Assembly (NCBI GenBank): GCA_038883795.1
Contig: JAVZLK010000031.1
Coordinates: 1 to 18,796 of the forward strand
Origin: Candidatus Bathyarchaeia archaeon
GTDB taxonomy: Archaea > Thermoproteota > Bathyarchaeia > Bathyarchaeales > Bathycorpusculaceae
Length of the DNA: 18,796 bases
Direction: 5' to 3'
A program made the position numbers and the translations under genes. Positions 5,049-18,523 of the stretch are shown piece by piece (the first letter of the stretch is position 1; each line of letters starts with the position of its first letter). The notes beneath the pieces are model-generated. The model saw only the letters and a list, made by a program, of their open reading frames with translations, did no database searches and was not told where the DNA came from.

Positions 5049-5213
5049 GTGGCAAGAAAATACATCGTCCGGGTTGTTTTAAGCCCACAACACAAAGAAC
5101 TATTAGACAGAATATGCCAAAAGCTGGGACAAAGCGAAAGCGAAACACTACGTATAGCATTCTTGCAATACGCGGAAAAACTTAGTTTAGTAACGGAAAA
5201 AGTGCATAGCTAA
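5049..5213 (+). CDS. Ribbon-helix-helix protein, 54 aa (not in ORF track)
   Basis: GTG at 5049 to TAA at 5211-5213: MARKYIVRVVLSPQHKELLDRICQKLGQSESETLRIAFLQYAEKLSLVTEKVHS; beta strand plus two helices with a G-x-S-x-S-E turn. Confidence 0.8.
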   Translation: MARKYIVRVVLSPQHKELLDRICQKLGQSESETLRIAFLQYAEKLSLVTEKVHS

Positions 5214-5236
5214 GTTGTAATTTTCTAAACATCAGT

Positions 5237-6262
5237 TTAAAATTTGCAGTTGCACCTTACATTTTCCCAGTCAGGAGGATTTCCTGGCGGAAGAATTAAT
5301 TTTTTTTCAGCAAGCACTTCCCAAACATACGGAGTTTCCTTGCATAGTGCTAGTTGCCCATTGAATCCTGTTTTACGTATTTCTTCAAGAACTATGCTGT
5401 ATAGGGATGTCCGTAAATCCTTTTGAATTTTTAATCCCCATCCTGTCTTTTCTTTCTCGTCTAAATAGCTTATCCAACTTTTATCTTTGGCATAATACAT
5501 GGTTTTTTTCAAACCTCTCAGACTACCTATCGTTATTCTTTCGGGCTTCAATTTGAATTCATCAAATATTATCTTAATTAACTCCGAATAATGAGCTGCC
5601 CAATTTTCTACGGGAATCATCGGGTCAATTCTAATTCTCACATTATAACCTTCTTCTTGTAATATTCTCATTGCCTCGAGACGATCTTTTAGACGTGCTG
5701 TTCCTTTCTCAAATTTTTCAACTACCGCCTCAGGGTTCAAAGAAAAGCTTACAATAAGAAATTTTTTGAGTTCTTTATCATTAAGAAGAGGATAAATGTT
5801 ATCTTTTCCAGCTTTGCTGAGAAATAAGAGCTTGTTTCCTGGATATTTTTCCATTATCGGGATTGTTTTTTCCAAAAATATTTCAGTCCATTTTGGTATC
5901 GCCAAACAGTCGGCCAGTTCTCCTACGCAAAGAAGTAGGTTGATGCCAATTGAGTCCAACCAGGAAAGAAATTCTTTCAATGTTTTGGCCATCTTGTTCA
6001 TGTCTTTAAATCTTGGCTTTTTATTACCAAAAAAAGTCCCCTGTAGATAACAATAACTGCATCCATAGGGACACCCTATGAATGGTTTTAAAAGCCAAAA
6101 GTGTGGACATACTATACTTTTGGGTGTTTTATAGAAAAAGGCTATATAAGAATTCTTCAGCCATTTTCTTGGTATTAATATTGCTTTTCTTTGAGCAACA
6201 GAGTCAAAAAGCCTTTTTTGTATTAACTCTTCTTGTCGAGGGTAAAAGTAGTAGTCTTTCAT
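5237..6262 (-). CDS. Radical SAM enzyme, spore photoproduct lyase-like family
   Basis: 341 aa; GCPYGCSYCYLQ (CxxxCxxC), GELADCLA, VSFSLNP, RIRIDPMIP, ITIGSLRG, LCKE, terminal RCNC. Confidence 0.85.
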   Translation of the reverse strand: MKDYYFYPRQEELIQKRLFDSVAQRKAILIPRKWLKNSYIAFFYKTPKSIVCPHFWLLKPFIGCPYGCSYCYLQGTFFGNKKPRFKDMNKMAKTLKEFLSWLDSIGINLLLCVGELADCLAIPKWTEIFLEKTIPIMEKYPGNKLLFLSKAGKDNIYPLLNDKELKKFLIVSFSLNPEAVVEKFEKGTARLKDRLEAMRILQEEGYNVRIRIDPMIPVENWAAHYSELIKIIFDEFKLKPERITIGSLRGLKKTMYYAKDKSWISYLDEKEKTGWGLKIQKDLRTSLYSIVLEEIRKTGFNGQLALCKETPYVWEVLAEKKLILPPGNPPDWENVRCNCKF

Positions 6263-6284
6263 TCCATTATCCTAGTTTCTATCG

Positions 6285-6698
6285 CTACTTATATACTATA
6301 AGTTTTGATGTAGCGATTTGATACGAATTAATTTTGACACCGTATTTACCCTTTGTTTTCCATTCCTCACAGAATCTACCAAGACCTTCAATAAGTCTTC
6401 TAAAGTCTTCATCGTTCGCGTTTTTAATCTTGAAGATGGCTACTGCGCCCTCAGCAGGCCCTACTTTGCCCCGAACTTCCTTATGTTCCTTGGGTTTAAT
6501 GAGGGAGAATATATAAGGTTCCAAAAATTGGTCTAAGCCATTCTCCAATATCCAAGGATAATGCTTTGAACCAGTTGCTATAGGACCCATCAAAATTCTA
6601 CGGGCTTCGCTAGGAACGTTCCTTGTGACAGCTCGGTTAGAGGGAACATACGACCACTTTACAATGACTAAAACATAATCAGCTAACATTTTCGACAA
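6285..6698 (-). CDS. Hypothetical protein (137 aa) in cargo operon
   Basis: Overlaps the ATPase stop by 20 nt and ends 22 nt before the radical SAM start; no recognised motif. Confidence 0.65.
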   Translation of the reverse strand: MSKMLADYVLVIVKWSYVPSNRAVTRNVPSEARRILMGPIATGSKHYPWILENGLDQFLEPYIFSLIKPKEHKEVRGKVGPAEGAVAIFKIKNANDEDFRRLIEGLGRFCEEWKTKGKYGVKINSYQIATSKLIVYK

Positions 6699-8637
6699 CA
6701 GGCCCTTCTCCTTTTTTGTATTCTAAAAATTTTATGAACGCAGCTTGTGGATAAGTAGATTTAATGTAATTTGCAAATTCGCTATCCATGGTCGAAACTA
6801 TTATTTGCTTATCTTGCGAAGCTTTAGCTAATAACTCTGCTAACCTCCGTTTCCCATAGGAATCCAAAGATTGACTAGGGTCATCCATAATAACAAATTC
6901 TAATTTATGAGGCGCTTTTTTAGCCATGGCAAGAAGAATAAGAACAGCAGACTCATTAAGTTGACCCGTGCTGAATAACGTTTGAACATAAGTTTTCTCG
7001 CCCGTTTCACTAACACCCTGTAGCCAGTAACCGTGTTCGTTATATATGATGGATATTTTAGAAAAAGTTGGATGCGGTGCCAAAATCTTTGCATAATCAC
7101 TAATGATGGGATTCAGAGACTCAATTCTTTTCTGGATAAACAATGGAGATATTCTGCTAAAATGCTCGTTCAGGGTTTTTACAAATTCATGAAAGCGTGT
7201 TAACTTTTCAAGTTTCATCTCGTCATTTTTAATGTCATCTTCTGAAGGTAATTGCGGATAACGCTGAGCAAGTTCCTGTTCTTTTTTGAAAATGTTATAA
7301 AGCTCGACTAATATCGTTGCTTCAGTTTCAAGAGCCTCATACTCGCTCTTTGCACTTTCTAGTTTCTCATACTTTTCTTGATCAAAATTCTTTTCCAGTT
7401 CTTCTTTTTCTTGCCGCCAAGAGCGTAGGTTATCTAACTTCAGGCTCAGATTACGTTCTTCTTGTTTTAATTTCTTTATTTCTTCATACAAAGCTTCTAT
7501 TTCTTTTTTCTCTTTAAGCTCTTCGACTTTGATACTCACACGGTTAAGAGTTGTTGAAGCATCTATTCTGCTTTCACACAATGGGCACTCATTTGGCATA
7601 GCTAATTGAAGATACTCCTTTCCTGAAATCAAAACTTTAGAGTAAGAATCTTTAACTTCTAATGCCTTTTCTTTCAACTTTATTTTTTCTTGAAGCCCCT
7701 TAATTTTTTGGTTGATTACACTTTCATCAAATTCTTCGATTTTTCGCTCAAGTTCTTCAATTCTTCTTTTTCTTTCCTTATATTGACTAAGCTCACTTGA
7801 TATCTTTTGTTTCCATTCTAAATGCATGCTTGGGAGCTTATCTAAAAATGCACGAACCGTCATTAAATCTTCCTTAAAGATAACAGGCATTTTTAAATTT
7901 ATAATATCCCCAATTTTTTCAAGTTTTTCAAAAAGGTCTTTAGCTCTTGAAATGATAGATGAAACTTTAAGCTCATTTTCAAATTCCTTTTGCGTCAAAT
8001 TCATTTTTTCTTTCAACGATGTTTTTTGAGAACTTAAGGATTCGCACTCTTCCCAATACTTATTTAACTCTCCTCGTTTGCCGTCAATGTCGTCTTTTAA
8101 AGATTTCTTATCACCCTCTATCAACTTTTCGGCTTCTTTTACCCCATTTTCCAGAGCTACGATAAATTCAATTCCCAATAGAGAACTGAGAACAGGCCCT
8201 CTCTTCTCTGGTTTCGCTTGAATGAATTCTCGAAGTGCTTCTTGACGTAGGTAAACAGTCGCACGAAAAGTTTCAGGGGCTATTTCAATCTTATCTCCTT
8301 CCAATATTTTTAGCTTAGCAGAGCGTGTTGGCTTCCAAACTTTTGATGATGCTACACTTCTTACAATTTTGGTCTTAGATTTTCCCTTCCTAAAAGATAT
8401 AGCTACTCTGGCCTCTCGATTTAGACTGTCTCTATTTATTATTGTATCTTCTTGCTCCGCTTCAGCACTATCATACTGTGGTAATTTGCCCAACAACGCC
8501 CATTCGATGGCATCACATAAGCTTGTTTTACCTGTGCCATTAGGACCTAATATCACTGTAAGCTTCTCATTAAAAGTAAATTCATAAGGCTTATTAAAGG
8601 CTCTAAAACCTTCGACATTAATTTTTTCGATTTTCAT
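6679..8637 (-). CDS. Rad50/SbcC-like SMC-family ABC ATPase with zinc hook
   Basis: 652 aa; GFRAF, Walker A GPNGTGKT, Q-loop YLRQE, coiled coils with central CPLC, signature FSTGQ, Walker B/D-loop FVIMDDPSQSLD. Confidence 0.9.
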   Translation of the reverse strand: MKIEKINVEGFRAFNKPYEFTFNEKLTVILGPNGTGKTSLCDAIEWALLGKLPQYDSAEAEQEDTIINRDSLNREARVAISFRKGKSKTKIVRSVASSKVWKPTRSAKLKILEGDKIEIAPETFRATVYLRQEALREFIQAKPEKRGPVLSSLLGIEFIVALENGVKEAEKLIEGDKKSLKDDIDGKRGELNKYWEECESLSSQKTSLKEKMNLTQKEFENELKVSSIISRAKDLFEKLEKIGDIINLKMPVIFKEDLMTVRAFLDKLPSMHLEWKQKISSELSQYKERKRRIEELERKIEEFDESVINQKIKGLQEKIKLKEKALEVKDSYSKVLISGKEYLQLAMPNECPLCESRIDASTTLNRVSIKVEELKEKKEIEALYEEIKKLKQEERNLSLKLDNLRSWRQEKEELEKNFDQEKYEKLESAKSEYEALETEATILVELYNIFKKEQELAQRYPQLPSEDDIKNDEMKLEKLTRFHEFVKTLNEHFSRISPLFIQKRIESLNPIISDYAKILAPHPTFSKISIIYNEHGYWLQGVSETGEKTYVQTLFSTGQLNESAVLILLAMAKKAPHKLEFVIMDDPSQSLDSYGKRRLAELLAKASQDKQIIVSTMDSEFANYIKSTYPQAAFIKFLEYKKGEGPVVENVS

Positions 8638-8867
8638 GCCACTACCTCTTCTTTTTTCTTAACCAAGAAATCAACAACGGTCTTTTTTATTTCGTTAAAC
8701 GTTTTTCCTTTTTCTATTTCCCCGTTGACTATTTCCAGTAACTCGTCTAGGAGGCCTACAATTTGCTCAAAATCTTGTCCTTTAAACTTTCCCTCGTCTT
8801 TAATATTGTTAACCAGTAAATTTCGTAGTTCTTGTAAAGTTTCATTTTTCATAAATGATTTGGTCAT
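8634..8867 (-). CDS. Small helical hypothetical protein (77 aa) coupled to the ATPase
   Basis: ATGA stop/start overlap with the ATPase at 8634-8637; overlaps the upstream gene by 26 nt. Confidence 0.7.
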   Translation of the reverse strand: MTKSFMKNETLQELRNLLVNNIKDEGKFKGQDFEQIVGLLDELLEIVNGEIEKGKTFNEIKKTVVDFLVKKKEEVVA

Positions 8868-9651
8868 GGCGTTTTTCCGCCTCTAATTTATCATATAGAT
8901 GGTTTGCAAGGTTAAAATCTTTCGTGCAAAACAAAATTGGATACGGTAGTTCTTTAACAAAACAGTGTATTGAAAACCTGCCAAAATTTTGTTTTATTAC
9001 TTTTCTACAAAACTCAGCACTTTTTTGGAAAATACGCTTTTTGATGTTAAGCAGAAAGCCAGGCGGCATATGTCTATGCACCCCCGGAACGAAATATCTT
9101 CCGCTATGTCTTCCGATAGAACGTTGGACAAGTGGAGCAGGGTATGCGCCTATGAGATCGCAGAAATCCTCTTCTAATATCTTTTCAAGAGTTTTCCAAC
9201 TAATATCAGTTGGTCTAAATGGGTCAACGCAAACTAGACAATGTCCCTCTAGCATCTTAATGGCTGACCGCACATACACATTTGCATCTCCAAGCAGAAA
9301 GCGACAATTCTTTTCCCTTTCCGCGAAACGCGTTTTTACTCGCTTTTCAAGCGCATCATAAAAATTCTTTTCCCTTTCGATGAATATGAGATTAGTAAAT
9401 TTTGGCTCAGTTTTTAGTGCAATTACCGGGGAGGCAGCTACTTGATAGTTGTCTTTATATTCTCTGACTATGCTGTATCCTGGTCCAGCCGTTAAATCCA
9501 AGTAGCCAATCCATTCCGTCTTGGGCGCTATCCATTTTGTCCATTCAGCAAAAATTATTCGGTAAAGGATATATCTTTTTAATGTGTAGCTCGGTATGTC
9601 TAGACAAGGCAACCCGTCACGAAGCTCTACAATTAGGGACGGGTCATACAA
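8842..9651 (-). CDS. tcmP: TcmP-like (three-Cys-motif partner) SAM-dependent methyltransferase-fold protein
   Basis: 269 aa; YLDLTAGPG, ASPVIAL, LIFIERE, GDAN, CVDPF, ISWKTLEKI match the TcmP pattern as I recall it (YiDlfAGpG..GSPliAl..FiE..GDaN..flDPfg..w.tl). Confidence 0.75.
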   Translation of the reverse strand: MYDPSLIVELRDGLPCLDIPSYTLKRYILYRIIFAEWTKWIAPKTEWIGYLDLTAGPGYSIVREYKDNYQVAASPVIALKTEPKFTNLIFIEREKNFYDALEKRVKTRFAEREKNCRFLLGDANVYVRSAIKMLEGHCLVCVDPFRPTDISWKTLEKILEEDFCDLIGAYPAPLVQRSIGRHSGRYFVPGVHRHMPPGFLLNIKKRIFQKSAEFCRKVIKQNFGRFSIHCFVKELPYPILFCTKDFNLANHLYDKLEAEKRHDQIIYEK

Positions 9652-9652
9652 C

Positions 9653-10402
9653 TTATATATCCCTTAAATATACTTTCTTACCTGACTTAAAAAGTGCACT
9701 TCCTCTCGTTTTCAAACATTTCTCAACTTCAACGAATTCTTGAAAAAATTCTGGAAAATGAGCTTTTAAGGCTTTAAACTGATTCACGGTTTTAAATGCG
9801 GTGCACCAGCAGTCTGTTGCCCTTGGAAATATTTTATACAAAGGATTTTCTTTTAAGTGATTTAATCTAATGTATTTTAAAACGTCTTCTTTTTTCCAAT
9901 AAAAAATGGGATGACAATTAAGGGATTGAAAATGTCTATGCCATCCAATAATTTGATAGTTTTTCCTCTTTGAGGATTCATCCGCGCGCATGCCATCAAA
10001 AATTATTATTTCGGAACTTTTCATGTTCCTGAAAAAACGCTTGAGGGGTTCAATTTTAAGATGATAACAACACCACCTTCTCGTAACTGTCGGAAAGCCC
10101 CACTTCTTAACTAAAGAAAAGAAGTCCTCTTTAGGATGAACTACCTCTAATTTAACTTTCAAACTTTCACAAATCTCCTTAACATATGTCGTGTTACCCG
10201 GTGTTGAGTTGGTTGTATCCACAAAAACAGCTGAAACCTCTGACTCTTTCCTATCGCAAACTTTTTTAACCAAATGCAAAGTTACTAAACTATCCCTCCC
10301 ACCTGAAAAGAGAACATAGGGCTTATACTTTTTAATCAAATCGTCTATTAAATTCATACTGTAATTAAGTGTTCTTTGGAAATTATCCTGGATTCCAGGC
10401 AC
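9653..10402 (-). CDS. PAPS/APS reductase-family (PP-loop) protein with Fe-S-type cysteines
   Basis: 249 aa; FSGGRDSL PP-loop, FVDT, RWCCYHLKIEP, GMRADESSKR, HPIFYWKKEDV, NPLY, DCWC. Confidence 0.88.
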   Translation of the reverse strand: MPGIQDNFQRTLNYSMNLIDDLIKKYKPYVLFSGGRDSLVTLHLVKKVCDRKESEVSAVFVDTTNSTPGNTTYVKEICESLKVKLEVVHPKEDFFSLVKKWGFPTVTRRWCCYHLKIEPLKRFFRNMKSSEIIIFDGMRADESSKRKNYQIIGWHRHFQSLNCHPIFYWKKEDVLKYIRLNHLKENPLYKIFPRATDCWCTAFKTVNQFKALKAHFPEFFQEFVEVEKCLKTRGSALFKSGKKVYLRDI

Positions 10403-10426
10403 GATAGTAATTTCATTTTATAGATA

Positions 10427-10439
10427 TTTTAAAATTTCT
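10427..10439 (-). promoter_or_regulatory. Putative BRE/TATA promoter of the cargo operon (leaderless transcript)
   Basis: Minus strand AGAAA-TTTTAAAA with the TATA-like octamer 25-32 nt upstream of the GTG at 10402; no RBS before the start. Confidence 0.45.
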
Positions 10440-10612
10440 AATTTTAGAGCGGTTTGAAACCTTACCACGCCTCAATAATTTTAGAAATTCAAGCTAAGAT
10501 ACCAACTTTCATGGTCGGTGAAAGTCTACAATTACTAAAATGAGTCGAAAAGCAGCCTGTTTTTAATAGAATCTTCTTAGCCTTGACTTTTTCCACTTTT
10601 CTTTGCCTTCCT

Positions 10613-11260
10613 TTAGCCTACGTTCACGGTTTCTAAAACTTTCAGGAAGTTTATTTTAAGACCTATTTTCCAGTAGCCTTGTATGTCTGAGCGGTATAGG
10701 TAGATTATGTTGTCTTGTCTTAGGTTTTTTAGGGCTTCGAGAACTTCTGTTGGGTTTGCCTTTAGCTTTTCAGCAAGTTCAAAGTTATCTCTTATTAAGA
10801 TAAATTTTGAGCCTGTTTCGTTATAATGCTTTAGCAATACTTCTACTACTTCCTTTTCCACATTGTCTAAACCAGTATTTTGAAGCCACAAGCTAATTGG
10901 AATTTGTTTGGTATTTTTCGGCTGGTTAGTTTCTACTTTGTTTCTATTTTCTTTCGATTTTCTTTCTAATTTCTTTCGATAATCATCTATATTATTATTA
11001 TATACGACATTCAAATACTTAACAAATTCAGCTCCAGAATCTGTTAAAAACCAGAAATCGCCATTTTTTAAGGCTAAACCATACCTTTCCATGTTCTTCA
11101 AATATCTCCAAACATAATTCTGGCTTTTTCCGCTTCTTTCAGCCAAGTCGCAGCAGCGGCCGCCCCCATCAAACAGCATGTAAAGGAGCGTTATCGTAAA
11201 GCCTCTAACACGCCCAAGGGCGGTAGAAGTAGTAGATAATATAGCGTAGTTAATAGCCAA
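10613..11260 (-). CDS. Two-domain winged-helix protein, putative replication initiator
   Basis: 215 aa; N-terminal wHTH (CCDLAERSGKSQNYVWRYLKNMERYGLA...WFLTDSG), Lys/Glu linker encoded by tandem repeats, C-terminal HTH (FELAEKLKANPTEVLEALKNLRQDNIIY); AGGTGA RBS. Confidence 0.65.
   Translation of the reverse strand: MAINYAILSTTSTALGRVRGFTITLLYMLFDGGGRCCDLAERSGKSQNYVWRYLKNMERYGLALKNGDFWFLTDSGAEFVKYLNVVYNNNIDDYRKKLERKSKENRNKVETNQPKNTKQIPISLWLQNTGLDNVEKEVVEVLLKHYNETGSKFILIRDNFELAEKLKANPTEVLEALKNLRQDNIIYLYRSDIQGYWKIGLKINFLKVLETVNVG
10925..10979. repeat. Five imperfect tandem 11-bp repeats (iteron-like)
   Basis: gttagtttcta/ctttgtttcta/ttttctttcga/ttttctttcta/atttctttcga, followed by an AT-rich tract at 10980-11004. 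Confidence 0.8.
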
Positions 11261-13931: not shown

Positions 13932-16877
13932 TTGTCTAGTAGGGTTACGGAGCGCACGCTTTATCCATTTATCGGCAAGGTTTTCGAGAGATTTGGTTGG
14001 CGTTATTTTCCAGAGACAGGCTTGGATGAGCGTTTTCCTGATCTGGTTCTTGAGGGTGATGGTGCTAAGGTTATTTCTGAAGTTAAGATAGACTCTGAGA
14101 TTCAGTTAACAAAGGCTATTATCGAGGCTGACCAAAAAGCTCGGAAACTTGGAACACGTAATGCAGTTGCTTTACTGTTTCCAAACTACGTGCGGGATAT
14201 TCCACTCAGCGAGTTGGAGCGTAACTATCCGCGAATGAAAGTTTCCGCTATTATATTAACGGATTGGCTTGCTGATAGAAAAGAGTTAACACTGGAAGAT
14301 TTGGCGGAAGCGTTCTCAACGTCTTTTAGGGATTGGCTCCAGACAAGGAAGACTAAAGTTAGTTATGATTTGGTTGTGGATGTCGCCCGCGATTCGATTA
14401 GGGAAATTGCTGGTTATCTGCGACAAAGTTTATCGCAGAAGCCAGTTTTTGATAGTGCTATGGCTGTTGTAGGGCGTTTTGACATTTATAAAAGCCTCCT
14501 TAAGGATTTTTCAGGAGTAAGCGATGAGGAAGCACGATTATATATTGCTGACATAACAGCCTATATTCTTGTAAATCAACTCCTGTTTTACCACATAATT
14601 TCTGAGAAACTTGGCTATGACAAACTACCTGACATTGACCCATTAAATCCACCTAAAGATTTCCTAGATATCCTCGAGCGGACTCTTAGTAAAGGACGAG
14701 AAGCCTATCCACATATTTTAGGTTTTGACTTGTTCCCCATTCTCCGCAGCGATTTTAGAATTGTTTATTCGATTGCTCGCATAGTTTCTAACCTGAAAGC
14801 GTTACGACCACAACATATTAAAGAAGACCTCTTCGGCAGACTTTACCATGAAACCATCCCGCCTGAGACACGCAAGAACTTAGGCGCATTCTATACTAAA
14901 CCGGAAGCAGCGAAGTTATTGACGACATTAGCTATTGACCGTTGGGATGCTAAAGTTTTGGACCCGGCATGCGGCTCCGGCACACTTCTAGTCGAGGCAT
15001 ATCAGCGTAAGGCAGCGTTAGCCCCACCGATGAGTAAAGAAGAACTTCATAAAAAACTCATCGATGACATTTGGGGCATAGACGTAATGCACTTTGCCTC
15101 ACACATGACTTCCATGAACCTCACGGCACAGAACATCGAAATTCCACTACAACCCCATGTCTTGAGCCAAGACGGCATAGAAACCATGATTGAATCTGCA
15201 TCGCGAAGCGAAAAAGTTGACCCACCTAAAGTCGCGGGAGAGCAGACATTAACCAAATGGATAGAGTTAATGAGGAAGGAGAAAATTCCTAGGGACTTTG
15301 ATGTTGTAATTATGAATCCACCATTCACAAGGAGAGAGCGAATACCAGCAAAAAAAGAAGAACTAGAAAAATTAGTGCCAGAAGTTAAAGGAAAAACAGG
15401 ATACTGGGCATACTTTGTAGTTGCTGCAGATAAATTGCTTAAAGAAAATGGAACACTTGCCATAGTTATACCCGAAGAATTCTTCGTTGGGGGATCTTCT
15501 CAAAGTGTTAGAGAATATCTTTTTAAAAAAGGATATGCTATAAGATATATTTTGAGAAGCGCTGCTGAAGTCGCGTTCAGTGAATCAGCACATTATCGTG
15601 ATTATTTAATTATATTGCAAAAAGATTCAAAAGATAAACCACTCGTTCTTTCAGTCTTTAAAAAGAAGTTAGATGACATACGTGAAAAAATCGATACATT
15701 AGGGCTTAAAATCAGAGAATTTGAAACTTCTACGGATAATAGATTAAATTTGGAAGAGATAGTTTCGCTTAAAATATCTAAAATAAACGATTTTGTTAGG
15801 CGGCATATTGGCAATTTAAAGCCCCTTGTGGCTTTTAATTCGGTGAAAGCATACGCTCTTATTTTAGAATTGTTAGACCAATTGAAAGAAAACCCTACAA
15901 TGAAGGATTTTGTAAAAAATAAAACAATCGAAATTAAAGTATACAATCCTGGTCAATTCACTACAAAGGGAGTAGAAAAGTTTGCCCGTAAGCTTTTCAT
16001 AAGCAGATATGGTGCCAGAAGCCCTAGCGCAGTTTTCGTGCTTGATAACGTAAGAAACGGAACTGTTTTCATAAGTATTAGAAAAACAAAAATTTCCTTT
16101 GGACTTCCAACAAGTTCCACGGTGTTTTCATTGAGAACTTATAGCAAAGTGAAACATATAGATATAACGGATGAAGAAGAGCGTGCAATAATTGATGCTG
16201 AATCAACCCCACAAGAAATGCTGAAACTAGTAGGTCTTCTCCCATTAAACAATACTATCATAGCAGCAAATGACATTTACTCCGCATATGAAAAAATTTC
16301 CGGTAACATATTGCTGGTGAGGAAAGCGAGGTTAACTTCGCCGGACTTGTTTTGGACTGCATTTTTGTCAAAAAATAAGGTGCTAGGAACAACCTCAGCA
16401 TTACTTAACATGAATGTAGTGGATGTGACGTTGGGTGCTCCATTGGCATTATACCTCAACAGCACAATCGCCTTTTTGCAATTAATCAGTCTAATGGCCG
16501 AAACGGAGGGCGCATGGGTTACGTTCCATGGAAAACAAGTCTGGAGCCATATTCACATGCCGATGCTTGAAAAACTACAGCAAATAAAAGGGAAAGCTCA
16601 AGAACTTTTAAAAAATATTCATAAAATTGATGTTAAACCTCTTTTTAAGCGTATTAAGGAGCATGACATCGTTCAGAGGGCTATTGATGATTTAGCCTTG
16701 GAGATGCTTGAGCTAGAAGATTGGAAATCTCGCTTAGACGAAATATACGATGCGCTAGCAAAAGAGCTGGAAACTATGCATAAAATCCTAGAAACTTCAA
16801 GAAAAACGTCCAAAAAATCAAAAGCAATTGCTAAGGAAGCGGATTTATCTGGAAAACTTGATATGTGGATTAAGTAG
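13932..16877 (+). CDS. Fused restriction-modification enzyme, Type IIG-like (PD-(D/E)XK nuclease + amino-MTase + TRD)
   Basis: 981 aa; N-terminal FPDLVLE...SEVK, GAFYTKP, motif I VLDPACGSGTLL, motif IV VIMNPPF (gamma order), long C-terminal specificity region. Confidence 0.88.
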   Translation: MSSRVTERTLYPFIGKVFERFGWRYFPETGLDERFPDLVLEGDGAKVISEVKIDSEIQLTKAIIEADQKARKLGTRNAVALLFPNYVRDIPLSELERNYPRMKVSAIILTDWLADRKELTLEDLAEAFSTSFRDWLQTRKTKVSYDLVVDVARDSIREIAGYLRQSLSQKPVFDSAMAVVGRFDIYKSLLKDFSGVSDEEARLYIADITAYILVNQLLFYHIISEKLGYDKLPDIDPLNPPKDFLDILERTLSKGREAYPHILGFDLFPILRSDFRIVYSIARIVSNLKALRPQHIKEDLFGRLYHETIPPETRKNLGAFYTKPEAAKLLTTLAIDRWDAKVLDPACGSGTLLVEAYQRKAALAPPMSKEELHKKLIDDIWGIDVMHFASHMTSMNLTAQNIEIPLQPHVLSQDGIETMIESASRSEKVDPPKVAGEQTLTKWIELMRKEKIPRDFDVVIMNPPFTRRERIPAKKEELEKLVPEVKGKTGYWAYFVVAADKLLKENGTLAIVIPEEFFVGGSSQSVREYLFKKGYAIRYILRSAAEVAFSESAHYRDYLIILQKDSKDKPLVLSVFKKKLDDIREKIDTLGLKIREFETSTDNRLNLEEIVSLKISKINDFVRRHIGNLKPLVAFNSVKAYALILELLDQLKENPTMKDFVKNKTIEIKVYNPGQFTTKGVEKFARKLFISRYGARSPSAVFVLDNVRNGTVFISIRKTKISFGLPTSSTVFSLRTYSKVKHIDITDEEERAIIDAESTPQEMLKLVGLLPLNNTIIAANDIYSAYEKISGNILLVRKARLTSPDLFWTAFLSKNKVLGTTSALLNMNVVDVTLGAPLALYLNSTIAFLQLISLMAETEGAWVTFHGKQVWSHIHMPMLEKLQQIKGKAQELLKNIHKIDVKPLFKRIKEHDIVQRAIDDLALEMLELEDWKSRLDEIYDALAKELETMHKILETSRKTSKKSKAIAKEADLSGKLDMWIK

Positions 16878-17329: not shown

Positions 17330-18340
17330 TTAGGCTGTTATTATTCCAGCCTTCCGCCTCAGCTCCGTTATGTATTGTGAGTATCTTGGGTAGTATTCAT
17401 CTGCTTTCCGCTTAAGCTTCATGTAATGCTTAGCTCCAATGCTTCTTGGAACCCTCCCCTGAATAAAGTCTGCAACGCTTTCTGGAATGTTTAACTTCTC
17501 GCTTGTCATCATGTCATTAGCAAACTTCCTGAGATACTTTGCCCTCGTATATCCGTGAAGTTGATGCAGCCTTTTCAGCCTAATTTCTGAAACTTTTTCA
17601 TTCAGCTTCTTTATTAACTGATAGGTGTATTCTGTCATGTAGCAATAATACGCTTGTTTTGACCCTCTGAAAAACCCAACAGGGCAGCAGTAAAACCCTT
17701 CCAAATGTTCAGCCTCTGGAAAATTGTTCAAAAGCCTGACAACTTCCACAAGCCTCAAACCAGAATCCAAAAGCAAGTTATACTCTGCTTGCAAAGGCAA
17801 AGGCTCAGAAACTATTCGCTTCAAGTCTGAGATTATCTGTTCTTCTTCTGGCACTTTAATGTCTATGCCCACCTCATCCTTGGGAATAGCTTTCCTCAAG
17901 CTGTCAAGAAACTCTTTAAACCGTCCATTAGGCTTGTTAATTTCTAAGCATTTAAACCAAGCCCGCATAGCACGGTTCAAGTGGTGCCTCTGACCAGCGG
18001 TTAAAGGCGAAAACAGTCGCATAACATCCAAAGGCTCTTTAATAGGCGTCTTAACAAACCTATCTAAATAGCCAATCATATTCCTTGCATTGGCAGGCTC
18101 ATAACGCTTAAACTCAACATACTGCAGAAACAACTCCCTGGTTTCAGGCCAGCTTAAAACAAAGCCTTCAAAGGAAACGCCACCAGCAGCTAAACTGCTT
18201 AAGGCTTCGCAAGGCTTCTCCACACGCCTCACCAGCTCTCCAAGCCTATCCTCGCCTTCAAGGCTTGAAGCTAAAGAACCCAAAGCCCTAGCTTGCTCCT
18301 CAACCCGCCTTTTTAATTGTTTTATTCTGTCTCCGGCCAT
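17330..18340 (-). CDS. int: Archaeal SSV1/pTN3-like tyrosine integrase (possibly the int(C) fragment)
   Basis: LLLDSGLRLVE (R), RGSKQAY (K), AKYLRKF (KxxR), ADFIQGR, IGAKHY (Y): the R-K-KxxR-R-Y pattern of SSV-type integrases; adjacent to a tRNA. Confidence 0.92.
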   Translation of the reverse strand: MAGDRIKQLKRRVEEQARALGSLASSLEGEDRLGELVRRVEKPCEALSSLAAGGVSFEGFVLSWPETRELFLQYVEFKRYEPANARNMIGYLDRFVKTPIKEPLDVMRLFSPLTAGQRHHLNRAMRAWFKCLEINKPNGRFKEFLDSLRKAIPKDEVGIDIKVPEEEQIISDLKRIVSEPLPLQAEYNLLLDSGLRLVEVVRLLNNFPEAEHLEGFYCCPVGFFRGSKQAYYCYMTEYTYQLIKKLNEKVSEIRLKRLHQLHGYTRAKYLRKFANDMMTSEKLNIPESVADFIQGRVPRSIGAKHYMKLKRKADEYYPRYSQYITELRRKAGIITA

Positions 18341-18388: not shown

Positions 18389-18448
18389 GGCCAGGGACCA
18401 AAGAAGCCCATTTCTGGCTTCTTTTTGCTGAAGCAGGCAGTTTTGGAG

Positions 18449-18523
18449 TGCTCCGGGCGGGATTTGAACCCGCGTCTCCGGCTCGAAAGGCCGGAATACT
18501 TGACCGGGCTATACTACCGGAGC
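18449..18523 (-). tRNA. tRNA-Glu (TTC), intron-less, no encoded CCA; probable integration site
   Basis: Reverse complement GCTCCGG TAGTATAGCCCGGTCAAGTATT CCGGC CTTTCGA GCCGG AGAC GCGGG TTCAAAT CCCGC CCGGAGC A: acceptor, anticodon and T stems all pair. Confidence 0.97.

What the first reader, a model, noticed from the sequence alone, without database searches (positions are those of the whole stretch)
5237..10402. Six-gene cargo operon: PAPS-reductase-like + TcmP methyltransferase + small protein + Rad50-like ATPase + unknown + SPL-like radical SAM; candidate undescribed DNA-modification/defence system
Seen: six co-oriented genes with gaps/overlaps of +1, -26, -4, -20 and +22 nt, visibly more AT-rich than the head module, with their own TATA-like promoter, inserted between the replication and head modules. 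Known: a PAPS-reductase-family enzyme plus an SMC-like ATPase is the DndC/DndD core of DNA phosphorothioation; TcmP proteins usually sit beside a three-Cys DUF5131 protein; SPL-family radical SAM enzymes act on DNA bases. Inference: three base/backbone-chemistry enzymes plus a DNA-scanning ATPase may install or sense a complex (sulfur/methyl) DNA modification, giving superinfection defence or anti-restriction. I know no named system with this composition.
Basis: partly seen in the sequence, partly recalled or inferred. Interest (0 to 1): 0.9.

Follow-up and report, generated by a model that had tools for sequence, protein, structure and literature searches.

The report
Viral six-gene radical-SAM DNA-marking cassette
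A temperate archaeal virus carries a conserved, mobile block of six genes (three iron-sulfur or SAM-type enzymes, a Rad50-like clamp and two small proteins) that most likely acts chemically on DNA in a way not yet described.

Summary
Six tightly packed minus-strand genes (5237-10402) encode a PAPS-reductase-like PP-loop enzyme, TcmP, a 77-aa protein, a Rad50/LmuB-like zinc-hook ATPase, a 137-aa orphan and an SPL-like radical SAM enzyme. GC is 0.36, against 0.50 and 0.41 in the flanks. The set is not a chance mosaic. After de-duplication, 18 loci carry the ATPase family, and wherever enough sequence exists the same neighbours appear in the same order. Six contigs hold all six genes. In two of them the SPL-like enzyme is replaced by DUF5131, TcmP's canonical partner. 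TcmP models as an RlmJ-like N6-adenine methyltransferase with intact motifs. Longer relatives of the radical SAM enzyme are fused to TcmP, ParB_N, HsdS specificity domains or whole type IIG-like methyltransferases, which points to sequence-directed action on DNA. The core pair is already PADLOC's untested candidate PDC-M41/M30, and this scan has noted that pair many times on other DNA. I found the six-gene form in no library or paper. It fails the Dnd, Ssp, BREX and Lamassu membership tests. Best reading (about 0.5): a mobile DNA-modification or R-M-like system carried as viral cargo. The chemistry and the phenotype are untested.

The parts
9653..10402 (-). PAPS-reductase-like PP-loop ATP pyrophosphatase (249 aa) with a probable Fe-S Cys motif
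   Evidence: PF01507 2.7e-30. PADLOC BrxP 2.4e-28, SspD 1.4e-17, DndC 1.5e-12. phrog_424 2.8e-45. Invariant SGGxDS, C111-C112 and C198 in 7 of 7 aligned orthologues.
8842..9651 (-). TcmP, an RlmJ-like class I methyltransferase-fold protein (269 aa)
   Evidence: TIGR04474 67.2 bits, cut-off 53. PADLOC PDC-M41A 2.1e-14. AF2 model pLDDT 87.8, with best PDB matches to E. coli RlmJ (E 1.5e-7, TM 0.56-0.58). Invariant D52, G56, G58, E92, D122, N124 and D143-P144 in 15 of 15 sequences.
8634..8867 (-). 77-aa protein of no known family, translationally coupled to the ATPase (4-nt overlap)
   Evidence: No family hit apart from one marginal PHROG match at 0.0092. phmmer finds homologues in the same position in L019, L020, L021, L022, L023 and L026. 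73-aa ORFs in the same position in L011 and L024 align at 24-25% identity.
6679..8637 (-). Rad50/LmuB-like ABC ATPase with a short coiled coil and a CPxC zinc hook (652 aa)
   Evidence: PADLOC LmuB 6.2e-48 over residues 1-629. The profile's best PDB hits are Rad50 heads, 1.7e-18. In 17 of 17 family members: Walker A, Q-loop, CP[LVI]C hook, signature FST[GA]Q, a Walker B ending DD rather than DE, and Met where the switch His would be.
6285..6698 (-). 137-aa system-specific protein with a ferredoxin-like beta-alpha-beta-beta-alpha-beta fold
   Evidence: No family hit. 65% mean column identity over 12 orthologues. AF2 pLDDT 81.8, with no PDB match at E <= 0.001. Only 9 hits at E <= 1e-3, and 3 at <= 1e-30, among 1.84 billion representatives. 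Found in 1 of 401 genomes of the class, the window's own.
5237..6262 (-). SPL-family radical SAM enzyme (341 aa), the three-Cys partner of TcmP
   Evidence: PF20903 1e-15 and Radical_SAM 8e-7. Invariant C64x3C68x2C71 plus four further invariant Cys (C52, C307, C337, C339) in 8 of 8 sequences. Paralogues lie directly beside TcmP on contigs C38 and C1. Replaced by DUF5131 in L020 and L021.
10403..10612 (-). Intergenic region upstream of the first gene, with an A/T-rich TATA-like stretch at about 10416-10433
   Evidence: Sequence read. Promoter function is not tested. In L011, L024, L027 and L034 the PP-loop gene is divergent from the other genes, so a second start upstream of TcmP must exist there.

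Best explanation
The six genes form one horizontally mobile system that acts on DNA. It is carried as accessory cargo by temperate head-tail viruses of archaea, probably Bathyarchaeia from hot springs. The core is the TcmP plus radical SAM pair. TcmP is an RlmJ-like, N6-adenine-methyltransferase-type protein with intact SAM-binding and DPF motifs, so it probably flips out and holds or methylates a target base. The SPL-like radical SAM enzyme has the canonical cluster plus four further conserved cysteines, and probably performs radical chemistry on the same site. The Rad50/LmuB-like zinc-hook ATPase and its two small coupled subunits would load or clamp the enzymes on DNA. Its Walker B ends in DD and a Met replaces the switch His, so it looks like a slow ATP-gated clamp and not a motor. 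The Fe-S PP-loop enzyme would add an adenylation-dependent step. That step could be sulfur insertion, as in DndC, SspD and the tRNA thiolases. The net result would be a covalent mark or lesion used to tell self DNA from foreign DNA. It could be a protective mark on viral DNA, or the writer half (or more) of an R-M-like exclusion system expressed from the provirus. Shown here: gene content, conservation of the set, partner swapping, folds, motifs and domain fusions. Inferred: DNA as the substrate, assembly into a complex, the order of steps, the chemistry and the phenotype.
For: (1) The genes are conserved as a unit. After de-duplication, 18 loci carry the ATPase family. TcmP lies directly upstream in 13 of 13 loci with enough upstream sequence. 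The 137-aa gene lies directly downstream in 12 of 12. A radical SAM partner follows in 9 of 9 (7 SPL-like, 2 DUF5131). The PP-loop gene flanks TcmP in 10 of 11. Six contigs hold all six genes. Identity to the window falls in the same order, L019 > L020 > L021 > L024 ~ L011, for each gene present. The one exception is the PP-loop gene of L021, a different and longer type at 35%. (2) The cassette is mobile. Its GC is 0.35-0.42 and lies below both flanks in 5 of 6 long loci. It sits on different sides of the head module in the window and in L024. A sibling element in the same genome (C38) carries ParB_N, radical SAM and TcmP genes in the same slot after the same wHTH gene. (3) The core pair is obligate. 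Of 19 TcmP loci in other genomes of the class, 17 have an adjacent DUF5131 or SPL-like gene. RadicalSAM.org places DUF5131 and SPL in one megacluster (PMC9477430, passage read). (4) DNA is the likely target. Of the 120 listed longer relatives of the radical SAM enzyme (390 found), 20 carry ParB_N, 4 carry an HsdS specificity domain, 3 carry N6_Mtase, MmeI_Mtase, HSDR_N and HsdS domains together, and 48 carry PF22560. P0082 is a TcmP::radical SAM fusion. P0090 holds a type IIG-like methyltransferase ahead of the radical SAM domain. (5) Catalytic motifs are invariant in all three enzymes. (6) PADLOC lists TcmP and DUF5131 as candidate defence proteins PDC-M41A/B and PDC-M30A/B.
Against: No modification, binding or phenotype has been measured. 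TcmP's nearest solved relative, RlmJ, methylates rRNA, and most Fe-S PP-loop enzymes act on tRNA, so RNA is not excluded (the second point is recalled knowledge). The neighbours of the cassette in L011 and L021 match no PADLOC model (0 of 10 proteins), so there is no defence-island context. The PP-loop gene is linked more loosely than the others. It is divergently oriented in 4 loci, is a different and longer Fer4-bearing type in L021, and is absent from L023. No nuclease or other obvious restriction partner is conserved beside the cassette. SPL itself is a repair enzyme, and SplB-like genes are tied to the bacterial SOS response (PMC3765255, passages read).
Confidence: 0.5

Rival explanations
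1. A Lamassu-like (ABC-3C) abortive defence system. The Rad50/LmuB-like ATPase and a small middle component sense foreign DNA ends or replication intermediates. They then release TcmP, the radical SAM enzyme and the PP-loop enzyme as toxic effectors.
For: The best PADLOC match of the ATPase is LmuB, over its full length (6.2e-48 for the window protein, 1.9e-44 for L011). The family has an invariant CPxC zinc hook and a length of about 650 aa, as described for LmuB (bioRxiv 10.1101/2025.03.14.643221, passages read). The gene order TcmP, 77-aa protein, ATPase mirrors effector, middle component, LmuB. The setting is a provirus with an integrase.
Against: None of the other five proteins matches any LmuA or LmuC model at E <= 0.01. 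The TcmP model shows one RlmJ-like fold with no separate C-terminal docking domain. The TcmP plus radical SAM pair also occurs alone, without the ATPase, in 17 of 19 loci, so it is an autonomous module and not an LmuA-type effector. Three separate enzymes as effectors, plus a further conserved 137-aa subunit downstream, are not part of the Lamassu plan. No chain named Lamassu or LmuB is among the 31 PDB hits of the ATPase profile at E <= 1e-5.
Confidence: 0.2
2. A virus-borne DNA-repair cassette. The SPL-like enzyme reverses a base lesion, TcmP recognises the lesion, and the Rad50-like ATPase recognises damaged DNA. Such a function could be useful in hot springs.
For: The solved relatives are spore photoproduct lyases, at 30 bits and E 2.8e-6, and Rad50. 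SplB-like radical SAM genes are linked to SOS and repair operons (PMC3765255). Earlier notes of this scan report LexA boxes upstream of TcmP-DUF5131 pairs. Those notes are unchecked by me. The host chromosome has its own pair beside the aIF5B and Top6A genes.
Against: The distribution is patchy: TcmP occurs in 20 of 401 genomes of the class and the 137-aa protein in 1 of 401. The cassette has foreign GC and its slot is exchanged between sibling viruses. Fusions to HsdS specificity domains and type IIG-like methyltransferases fit sequence-specific R-M logic better than lesion repair. The match to the SPL equivalog model is 63 bits against a cut-off of 400.
Confidence: 0.13
3. A mosaic of two or three independent modules (PP-loop enzyme; TcmP plus radical SAM; ATPase trio) that merely share a cargo slot, with no joint function.
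For: The PP-loop gene varies in orientation and type and is absent from L023. The TcmP plus radical SAM pair works without the others elsewhere. Viral cargo slots tend to collect unrelated genes.
Against: The ATPase trio splits the TcmP and radical SAM pair in every locus that can be judged, and was never seen without TcmP (13 of 13). The order holds down to 36% ATPase identity. Overlapping stop and start codons link four of the five junctions. The 137-aa protein is essentially confined to this system.
Confidence: 0.07
4. An RNA-modification system that retargets host tRNA or rRNA during infection.
For: TcmP's nearest structures are the 23S rRNA m6A methyltransferase RlmJ and Trm1. The PP-loop enzyme gives weak matches to TilS, TtcA and TtuA models.
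Against: The ATPase is Rad50/LmuB-like. Relatives of the radical SAM enzyme are fused to ParB_N, HsdS and DNA methyltransferase domains. The solved SPL enzymes are DNA-repair enzymes (their DNA substrate is recalled knowledge).
Confidence: 0.05

Closest known systems
TcmP / three-Cys-motif pair (NCBIfam TIGR04474 with Pfam PF07505 DUF5131), PADLOC candidates PDC-M41 and PDC-M30
   Same: TcmP scores above the curated cut-off. A radical SAM partner is always present. In L020 and L021 that partner is DUF5131 and matches PDC-M41B and PDC-M30B. The element is mobile and patchily distributed.
   Different: In the window the partner is an SPL-family enzyme, not DUF5131, and three extra genes separate the pair. 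A PP-loop enzyme is added. The C-terminal half of this TcmP has diverged, since the model matches only residues 37-168. The pair has no published function that I could find.
Lamassu / ABC-3C (LmuA-LmuC-LmuB, DdmABC)
   Same: An ATPase of about 650 aa related to Rad50, with a zinc hook and a full-length LmuB profile match. A small gene lies directly upstream of it, and an enzyme gene upstream of that.
   Different: There is no LmuA or LmuC match. An extra conserved 137-aa subunit is present. Three enzymes stand where Lamassu has one effector with a docking domain. The catalytic Glu and the switch His are replaced.
Dnd and Ssp DNA phosphorothioation (DndACDE, SspABCD)
   Same: A PAPS-reductase-fold PP-loop enzyme with a Cys motif, encoded with an SMC-like ATPase and small proteins.
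   Different: DndC scores 34.7 bits against a cut-off of 290.4. The DndD match covers residues 1-90 only. None of the scanned cassette proteins matched a cysteine desulfurase, DndE, SspA or SspB model. A radical SAM enzyme and TcmP have no counterpart in Dnd or Ssp.
Spore photoproduct lyase (SplB, TIGR04070)
   Same: The Pfam SPL family, a CX3CX2C motif, and alignment over about 170 residues to Geobacillus SPL structures.
   Different: 63.3 bits against an equivalog cut-off of 400. There are four extra invariant Cys. The enzyme is obligately paired or fused with TcmP, ParB_N or R-M modules.
BREX type 4 BrxP and phage PAPS-reductase homologues (phrog_424)
   Same: These are the best profile matches of the PP-loop enzyme: BrxP 2.4e-28 and phrog_424 2.8e-45. 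Both are accessory genes of mobile elements with presumed roles in DNA modification (PMC11437467, passage read).
   Different: Only the PAPS-reductase domain matches (profile positions 133-342 of 779). No other BREX model matched the cassette proteins.
Unnamed fusions of the same radical SAM clade with type IIG-like R-M enzymes, HsdS domains or ParB_N (proteins P0047-P0166)
   Same: 38-45% identity to the window enzyme over about 89% of its length. The pairing is again with an amino-methyltransferase-type module.
   Different: Those are single polypeptides, with no Rad50-like ATPase, PP-loop enzyme or small subunits. Their function is also uncharacterised as far as I could find.

Membership tests
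TcmP / three-Cys pair (TIGR04474 + PF07505; PADLOC PDC-M41/M30) | TcmP protein above the NCBIfam cut-off | tested here: met
   67.2 bits against 53. PDC-M41A 2.1e-14.
TcmP / three-Cys pair (TIGR04474 + PF07505; PADLOC PDC-M41/M30) | A DUF5131 (PF07505) gene directly adjacent to TcmP | tested here: not met
   The window has no DUF5131. Its partner is an SPL-family enzyme three genes away. DUF5131 does fill this role in the orthologous cassettes L020 and L021 (8.5e-20).
Lamassu (LmuACB) | LmuB: Rad50-like ATPase of about 600 aa with a zinc hook | tested here: met
   PADLOC LmuB 6.2e-48 over residues 1-629 (the model has no curated cut-off). CP[LVI]C is invariant in 17 of 17.
Lamassu (LmuACB) | LmuA effector with a C-terminal docking or oligomerisation domain | tested here: not met
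   No LmuA model matched any cassette protein at E <= 0.01. TcmP models as a single RlmJ-like fold.
Lamassu (LmuACB) | LmuC middle component | tested here: inconclusive
   A 77-aa gene sits in the expected position, but no LmuC model matched it. The types of LmuC are very diverse.
Dnd phosphorothioation | DndC equivalog (TIGR03183) | tested here: not met
   34.7 bits against a cut-off of 290.4.
Dnd phosphorothioation | DndD ATPase | tested here: not met
   The PADLOC DndD match is 6e-12 but covers only residues 1-90, the P-loop region.
Dnd phosphorothioation | Cysteine desulfurase (DndA/IscS) and DndE in the cluster | tested here: not met
   None of the six proteins matched such a family in Pfam, NCBIfam or PADLOC. 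A host IscS acting in trans was not examined.
Ssp phosphorothioation | SspD with SspA, SspB and SspC | tested here: inconclusive
   SspD matches at 1.4e-17 over profile positions 6-206 of 277 (no curated cut-off). No SspA or SspB model matched any cassette protein. No SspC model is among the 25 shown of the ATPase's 68 matches.
Spore photoproduct lyase | Equivalog-level match (TIGR04070) | tested here: not met
   63.3 bits against a cut-off of 400. The broader Pfam family PF20903 is met (57.9 bits against 27).
Radical SAM superfamily | CX3CX2C cluster motif | tested here: met
   C64, C68 and C71 are invariant in 8 of 8.
BREX type 4 | BrxP together with the other BREX genes | tested here: not met
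   Only the PAPS-reductase domain of BrxP matches. No other BREX model matched the seven proteins scanned.
Rad50-Mre11 / SbcCD | Rad50 equivalog with a neighbouring Mre11 or SbcD nuclease | tested here: not met
   The Rad50 models score 36-59 bits against cut-offs of 700-1087. None of the cassette proteins matched a nuclease family.

The most novel reading that the evidence does not exclude
This is a new class of R-M-like immunity. A radical SAM enzyme, aimed by an adenine-methyltransferase-fold partner and loaded by a Rad50-like ATP-gated clamp, writes an undescribed DNA hypermodification. That mark may contain sulfur, given the Fe-S PP-loop enzyme and the extra cysteine cluster. Alternatively the enzyme inflicts radical damage on unmarked DNA. 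The widespread TcmP-DUF5131 and TcmP-SPL pairs, and the R-M::radical SAM fusions, would then be simpler forms of the same principle.
Probability: 0.3. Interest if true: 0.85.

Novelty: new variant of a known kind. Interest (0 to 1): 0.68.

Why it matters
TcmP plus a three-Cys radical SAM enzyme is a widespread mobile gene pair. It is catalogued as a defence candidate, but I could find no known chemistry for it. This cassette is its most elaborate form. It links the pair to a Rad50/Lamassu-type clamp and to a Dnd/Ssp/BREX-type PP-loop enzyme, and the fusions found here tie the radical SAM clade to sequence-specific R-M modules. This gives a concrete, testable case for radical SAM chemistry on DNA in virus-host conflict. 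It may also reveal a new DNA modification in archaeal viruses, where very few such systems have been studied.

Tried and rejected
I first read the cassette as a mosaic of a viral modification pair plus a separate Lamassu-like module (stated). The conserved order seen lowered that reading to about 0.07.

Single-protein scans of viral contigs with the ATPase and the radical SAM enzyme found nothing. Alignment scans of viral contigs with A1 and A2 also found nothing. These scans are pattern-based, so this is not proof of absence.

Complex prediction with the ATPase (A1) and the 137-aa protein (A2) gave no verdict (scores 0.00, 0.38, 0.00). This is no evidence either way.

The fold search of the 137-aa model gave only generic ferredoxin-like matches, with TMq at most 0.47 and none at E <= 0.001. 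Its profile search of the PDB gave one chance-level hit. The ESM Atlas gave no usable hit.

The look-up of sequencing runs listed no RNA holder, so nothing can be said about expression. Read laying used contigs only, so I make no claim from depth.

No direct or inverted repeats bound the cassette.

PADLOC and PHROG scans of the neighbours in L011 and L021 were nearly blank. One L021 neighbour matched phrog_37995 (1.4e-55, function unknown), and one L011 neighbour matched phrog_9660 weakly.

A search of cultured phages with the C38-type TcmP found only two Synechococcus phages, with hypothetical annotations.

The main text of the Payne et al. preprint (10.1101/2024.01.29.577857) does not contain PDC-M30, PDC-M41, TcmP or 'radical SAM'. 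Supplements are closed, so the origin and status of those PADLOC candidates rest on the PADLOC models alone.

The Krishnan et al. ABC ATPase paper was not held. Its classification is cited only through the Lamassu preprint.

DefenseFinder was not available.

As a result PF22560 was not looked up, and the domain order of the fusions rests on BLASTP alignments.

Full report
OBSERVATION. The window is one whole 18,796-nt contig (C31) of a 2.18-Mb, 81-contig archaeal genome bin. Cassette GC is 0.362, against 0.501 on the head-module side and 0.411 on the other side. An A/T-rich TATA-like stretch precedes the first gene.

The surroundings are a temperate head-tail virus. On one side lie portal, capsid, cement and scaffold genes. 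On the other side lie a wHTH regulator, small ORFs, a 981-aa type IIG-like N6-methyltransferase, an archaeal integrase and a tRNA-Glu gene. I recognised no replication gene, so that detail of the finding is not supported.

WHAT THE PROTEINS ARE.

(1) The 249-aa protein is a PAPS-reductase-fold PP-loop enzyme (PF01507, 2.7e-30). Its best profile matches are phage phrog_424 (2.8e-45), BrxP (2.4e-28), SspD (1.4e-17) and DndC (1.5e-12). SGGxDS, a Cys-Cys pair and a further Cys are invariant in 7 of 7 orthologues. This resembles the CC...CxxC Fe-S motif of APS reductases, a comparison I make from memory.

(2) The 269-aa protein is TcmP (TIGR04474, 67.2 bits against 53). Its AlphaFold model (pLDDT 87.8) is closest to the 23S rRNA m6A methyltransferase RlmJ (E 1.5e-7, TM 0.56-0.58). 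The SAM-binding residues and the D-P(-F) motif are invariant in 15 of 15 sequences.

(3) The 77-aa protein matches no family and looks helical to me from its sequence and alignment.

(4) The 652-aa ATPase matches PADLOC LmuB over its full length (6.2e-48). Its profile matches Rad50 heads in the PDB (1.7e-18). All 17 family members keep the Walker A motif, the Q-loop and a mid-coiled-coil CP[LVI]C zinc hook. All 17 also end the Walker B motif in DD rather than DE and have Met where the switch His would be. This suggests slow or no ATP hydrolysis. Another first-reader note on this same stretch (e1-6367172) said much the same, and I checked it here.

(5) The 137-aa protein is highly conserved, with 65% mean column identity. 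It folds as a ferredoxin-like beta-alpha-beta-beta-alpha-beta unit (pLDDT 81.8) with no informative structural match. It is almost confined to this system: 3 representatives at E <= 1e-30 among 1.84 billion proteins, and 1 of 401 genomes of the class.

(6) The 341-aa protein is an SPL-family radical SAM enzyme (PF20903, 1e-15). It has an invariant CX3CX2C motif and four more invariant cysteines. It is far below the SPL equivalog cut-off (63 bits against 400).

IS THE SET REAL? Yes. An alignment of 17 ATPase homologues retrieved one genome locus, a Bathyarchaeia MAG (L011). It also retrieved 43 metagenome loci, of which L019-L037 are true family members.

L030 and L036 duplicate L011, and L027 overlaps L032. 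After removing these duplicates, 18 distinct loci remain. A local phmmer search with the window's proteins and Pfam scans gave these counts:
- TcmP lies directly upstream of the ATPase in 13 of 13 loci with enough upstream sequence.
- The 137-aa gene lies directly downstream in 12 of 12.
- A radical SAM partner follows in 9 of 9.
- The PP-loop gene flanks TcmP in 10 of 11.

The exception for the PP-loop gene is L023. There a C38-type radical SAM plus TcmP pair and a 318-aa orphan take its place.

Phmmer detects the small gene between TcmP and the ATPase in six further loci. It also appears as a 73-aa ORF in the same position in L011 and L024. Six contigs hold all six genes: the window, L011, L019, L020, L021 and L024.

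Identity to the window falls in the same order across loci for every gene. The one exception is L021's PP-loop gene, a different and longer type. So apart from that replacement, the genes travel together.

A Logan contig of a run from a different study covers 5079-10401 with 334 differences.

THE KEY CORRECTION. The SPL-like enzyme is TcmP's own partner. The same genome holds two more radical SAM to TcmP adjacent pairs. One is on the sibling viral contig C38, in the same slot after the same wHTH gene, and is preceded by a ParB_N protein. The other is on the chromosome beside the aIF5B and Top6A genes.

In L020 and L021 the SPL-like gene is absent. A DUF5131 gene (8.5e-20; PADLOC PDC-M41B and PDC-M30B) sits right after the 137-aa gene.

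TcmP occurs in 20 of the 401 genomes of the class that I searched. Of the 19 TcmP loci in genomes other than the window's own, 17 have an adjacent partner. In 10 it is DUF5131, in 6 it is SPL-like, and L080 has both. I saw no partner in L075 or L078.

RadicalSAM.org puts DUF5131 and SPL in the same megacluster (PMC9477430, passage read).

The cassette is therefore the known TcmP / three-Cys pair, split open by a Rad50-like ATPase trio and joined by a PP-loop enzyme.

WHAT IT ACTS ON. I searched for longer relatives of the radical SAM enzyme (38-45% identity). The search found 390, of which 120 are listed:
- 20 are fused to ParB_N.
- 48 carry PF22560. NCBI names two of these TcmP.
- 4 carry an HsdS-type specificity domain.
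- 3 are proteins of about 1,400 aa that also carry N6_Mtase, Eco57I, MmeI_Mtase, HSDR_N and HsdS domains.
- 45 carry only SPL or Radical_SAM domains.

P0082 is a TcmP::radical SAM fusion. P0090 holds a type IIG-like methyltransferase ahead of a C-terminal radical SAM domain. This wiring to sequence-specific DNA recognition is the best evidence that the substrate is DNA and that the logic is R-M-like.

HOW IT PROBABLY WORKS (inference). TcmP flips out and holds or methylates a target base. The radical SAM enzyme does radical chemistry at that site. The zinc-hook ATPase and its two small subunits act as an ATP-gated DNA clamp or loader. The Fe-S PP-loop enzyme adds an adenylation-dependent step, possibly sulfur insertion. 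The outcome is a mark, or a lesion on unmarked DNA, that separates self from foreign DNA.

The viral setting fits a conflict function better than housekeeping. The evidence is the integrase, the foreign GC, and the slot exchanged between sibling viruses. The distribution is also patchy. I put this reading at about 0.5.

The rivals are a Lamassu-like abortive system (0.2), a repair cassette (0.13), a mosaic (0.07) and an RNA target (0.05). The evidence for and against each is given in its own section.

COMPARISON WITH KNOWN SYSTEMS. The cassette fails membership of five known systems:
- Dnd: DndC scores 34.7 bits against 290.4, and DndD matches the P-loop region only.
- Ssp: only an SspD-domain match.
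- BREX type 4: only the BrxP domain matches.
- Rad50-Mre11: the scores fall far below the cut-offs.
- Lamassu: there is no LmuA or LmuC match.

It contains the TcmP / three-Cys pair, which is PADLOC's untested candidate PDC-M41/M30. My searches for TcmP, DUF5131, PF07505, TIGR04474, COG4422, PDC-M30/M41 and related terms found no paper on the function of the pair or on a six-gene form. Papers outside the held library, and supplements, could not be seen.

This scan has noted the two-gene pair many times on other DNA: 435 notes hold those words. In the listings I saw, none described the six-gene form.

VERDICT. This is a new, conserved variant of a known but uncharacterised kind. Interest is 0.68.

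Noticed in passing
window 13932-16877 (+): A 981-aa protein with N6_Mtase, Eco57I and MmeI_Mtase domains, which is type IIG-like. It is a second modification or restriction gene in the same provirus. Its methyltransferase part aligns (E 2e-11) to P0090, a 1,403-aa protein that ends in a radical SAM domain of the same clade as the cassette's enzyme.
   Followed up: partly
window 17330-18340 (-) and 18448-18523 (-): An archaeal phage-type integrase (PF16795, 3.5e-28) lies next to a tRNA-Glu(TTC) gene at the contig end. This is probably the attachment site of an integrated provirus.
   Followed up: partly
L009 (G000 contig C38) 5871-9670: A sibling viral contig in the same genome bin carries a three-gene variant in the same slot after a homologous wHTH gene: a ParB_N protein (310 aa), an SPL-like radical SAM enzyme (308 aa) and a full-length TcmP (327 aa, 133 bits). 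An XPB/Rad25-like helicase lies upstream.
   Followed up: partly
L010 (G000 contig C1) 7076-9000: A chromosomal radical SAM to TcmP pair lies directly downstream of the aIF5B and Top6A genes. The host therefore has its own copy of the core pair.
   Followed up: partly
L023 1-5445: One metagenome contig holds two TcmP genes. A C38-type radical SAM plus TcmP pair comes first, then a 318-aa orphan where the PP-loop gene usually sits, and then the window-type TcmP, the small gene, the ATPase and the start of the 137-aa gene.
   Followed up: partly
L021 7473-8891: On a 2.46-Mb contig the PP-loop enzyme of the cassette is a different and longer type: 472 aa, with a 4Fe-4S ferredoxin domain and a BrxP match of 1.6e-50. 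It is only 35% identical to the window's enzyme.
   Followed up: no
L038 10001-10210: A 111-kb metagenome contig holds only a 70-residue stretch that is 57% identical to residues 497-566 of the ATPase. It may be a gene remnant.
   Followed up: no
L027 729-1543: In this locus TcmP is split into two overlapping ORFs (729-1181 and 1148-1543). This is either a frameshift or an assembly error, and is the only broken gene seen among the cassettes.
   Followed up: no
window 10930-10973: Three tandem 11-nt-spaced T-rich repeats lie inside the wHTH regulator gene that borders the cassette.
   Followed up: no
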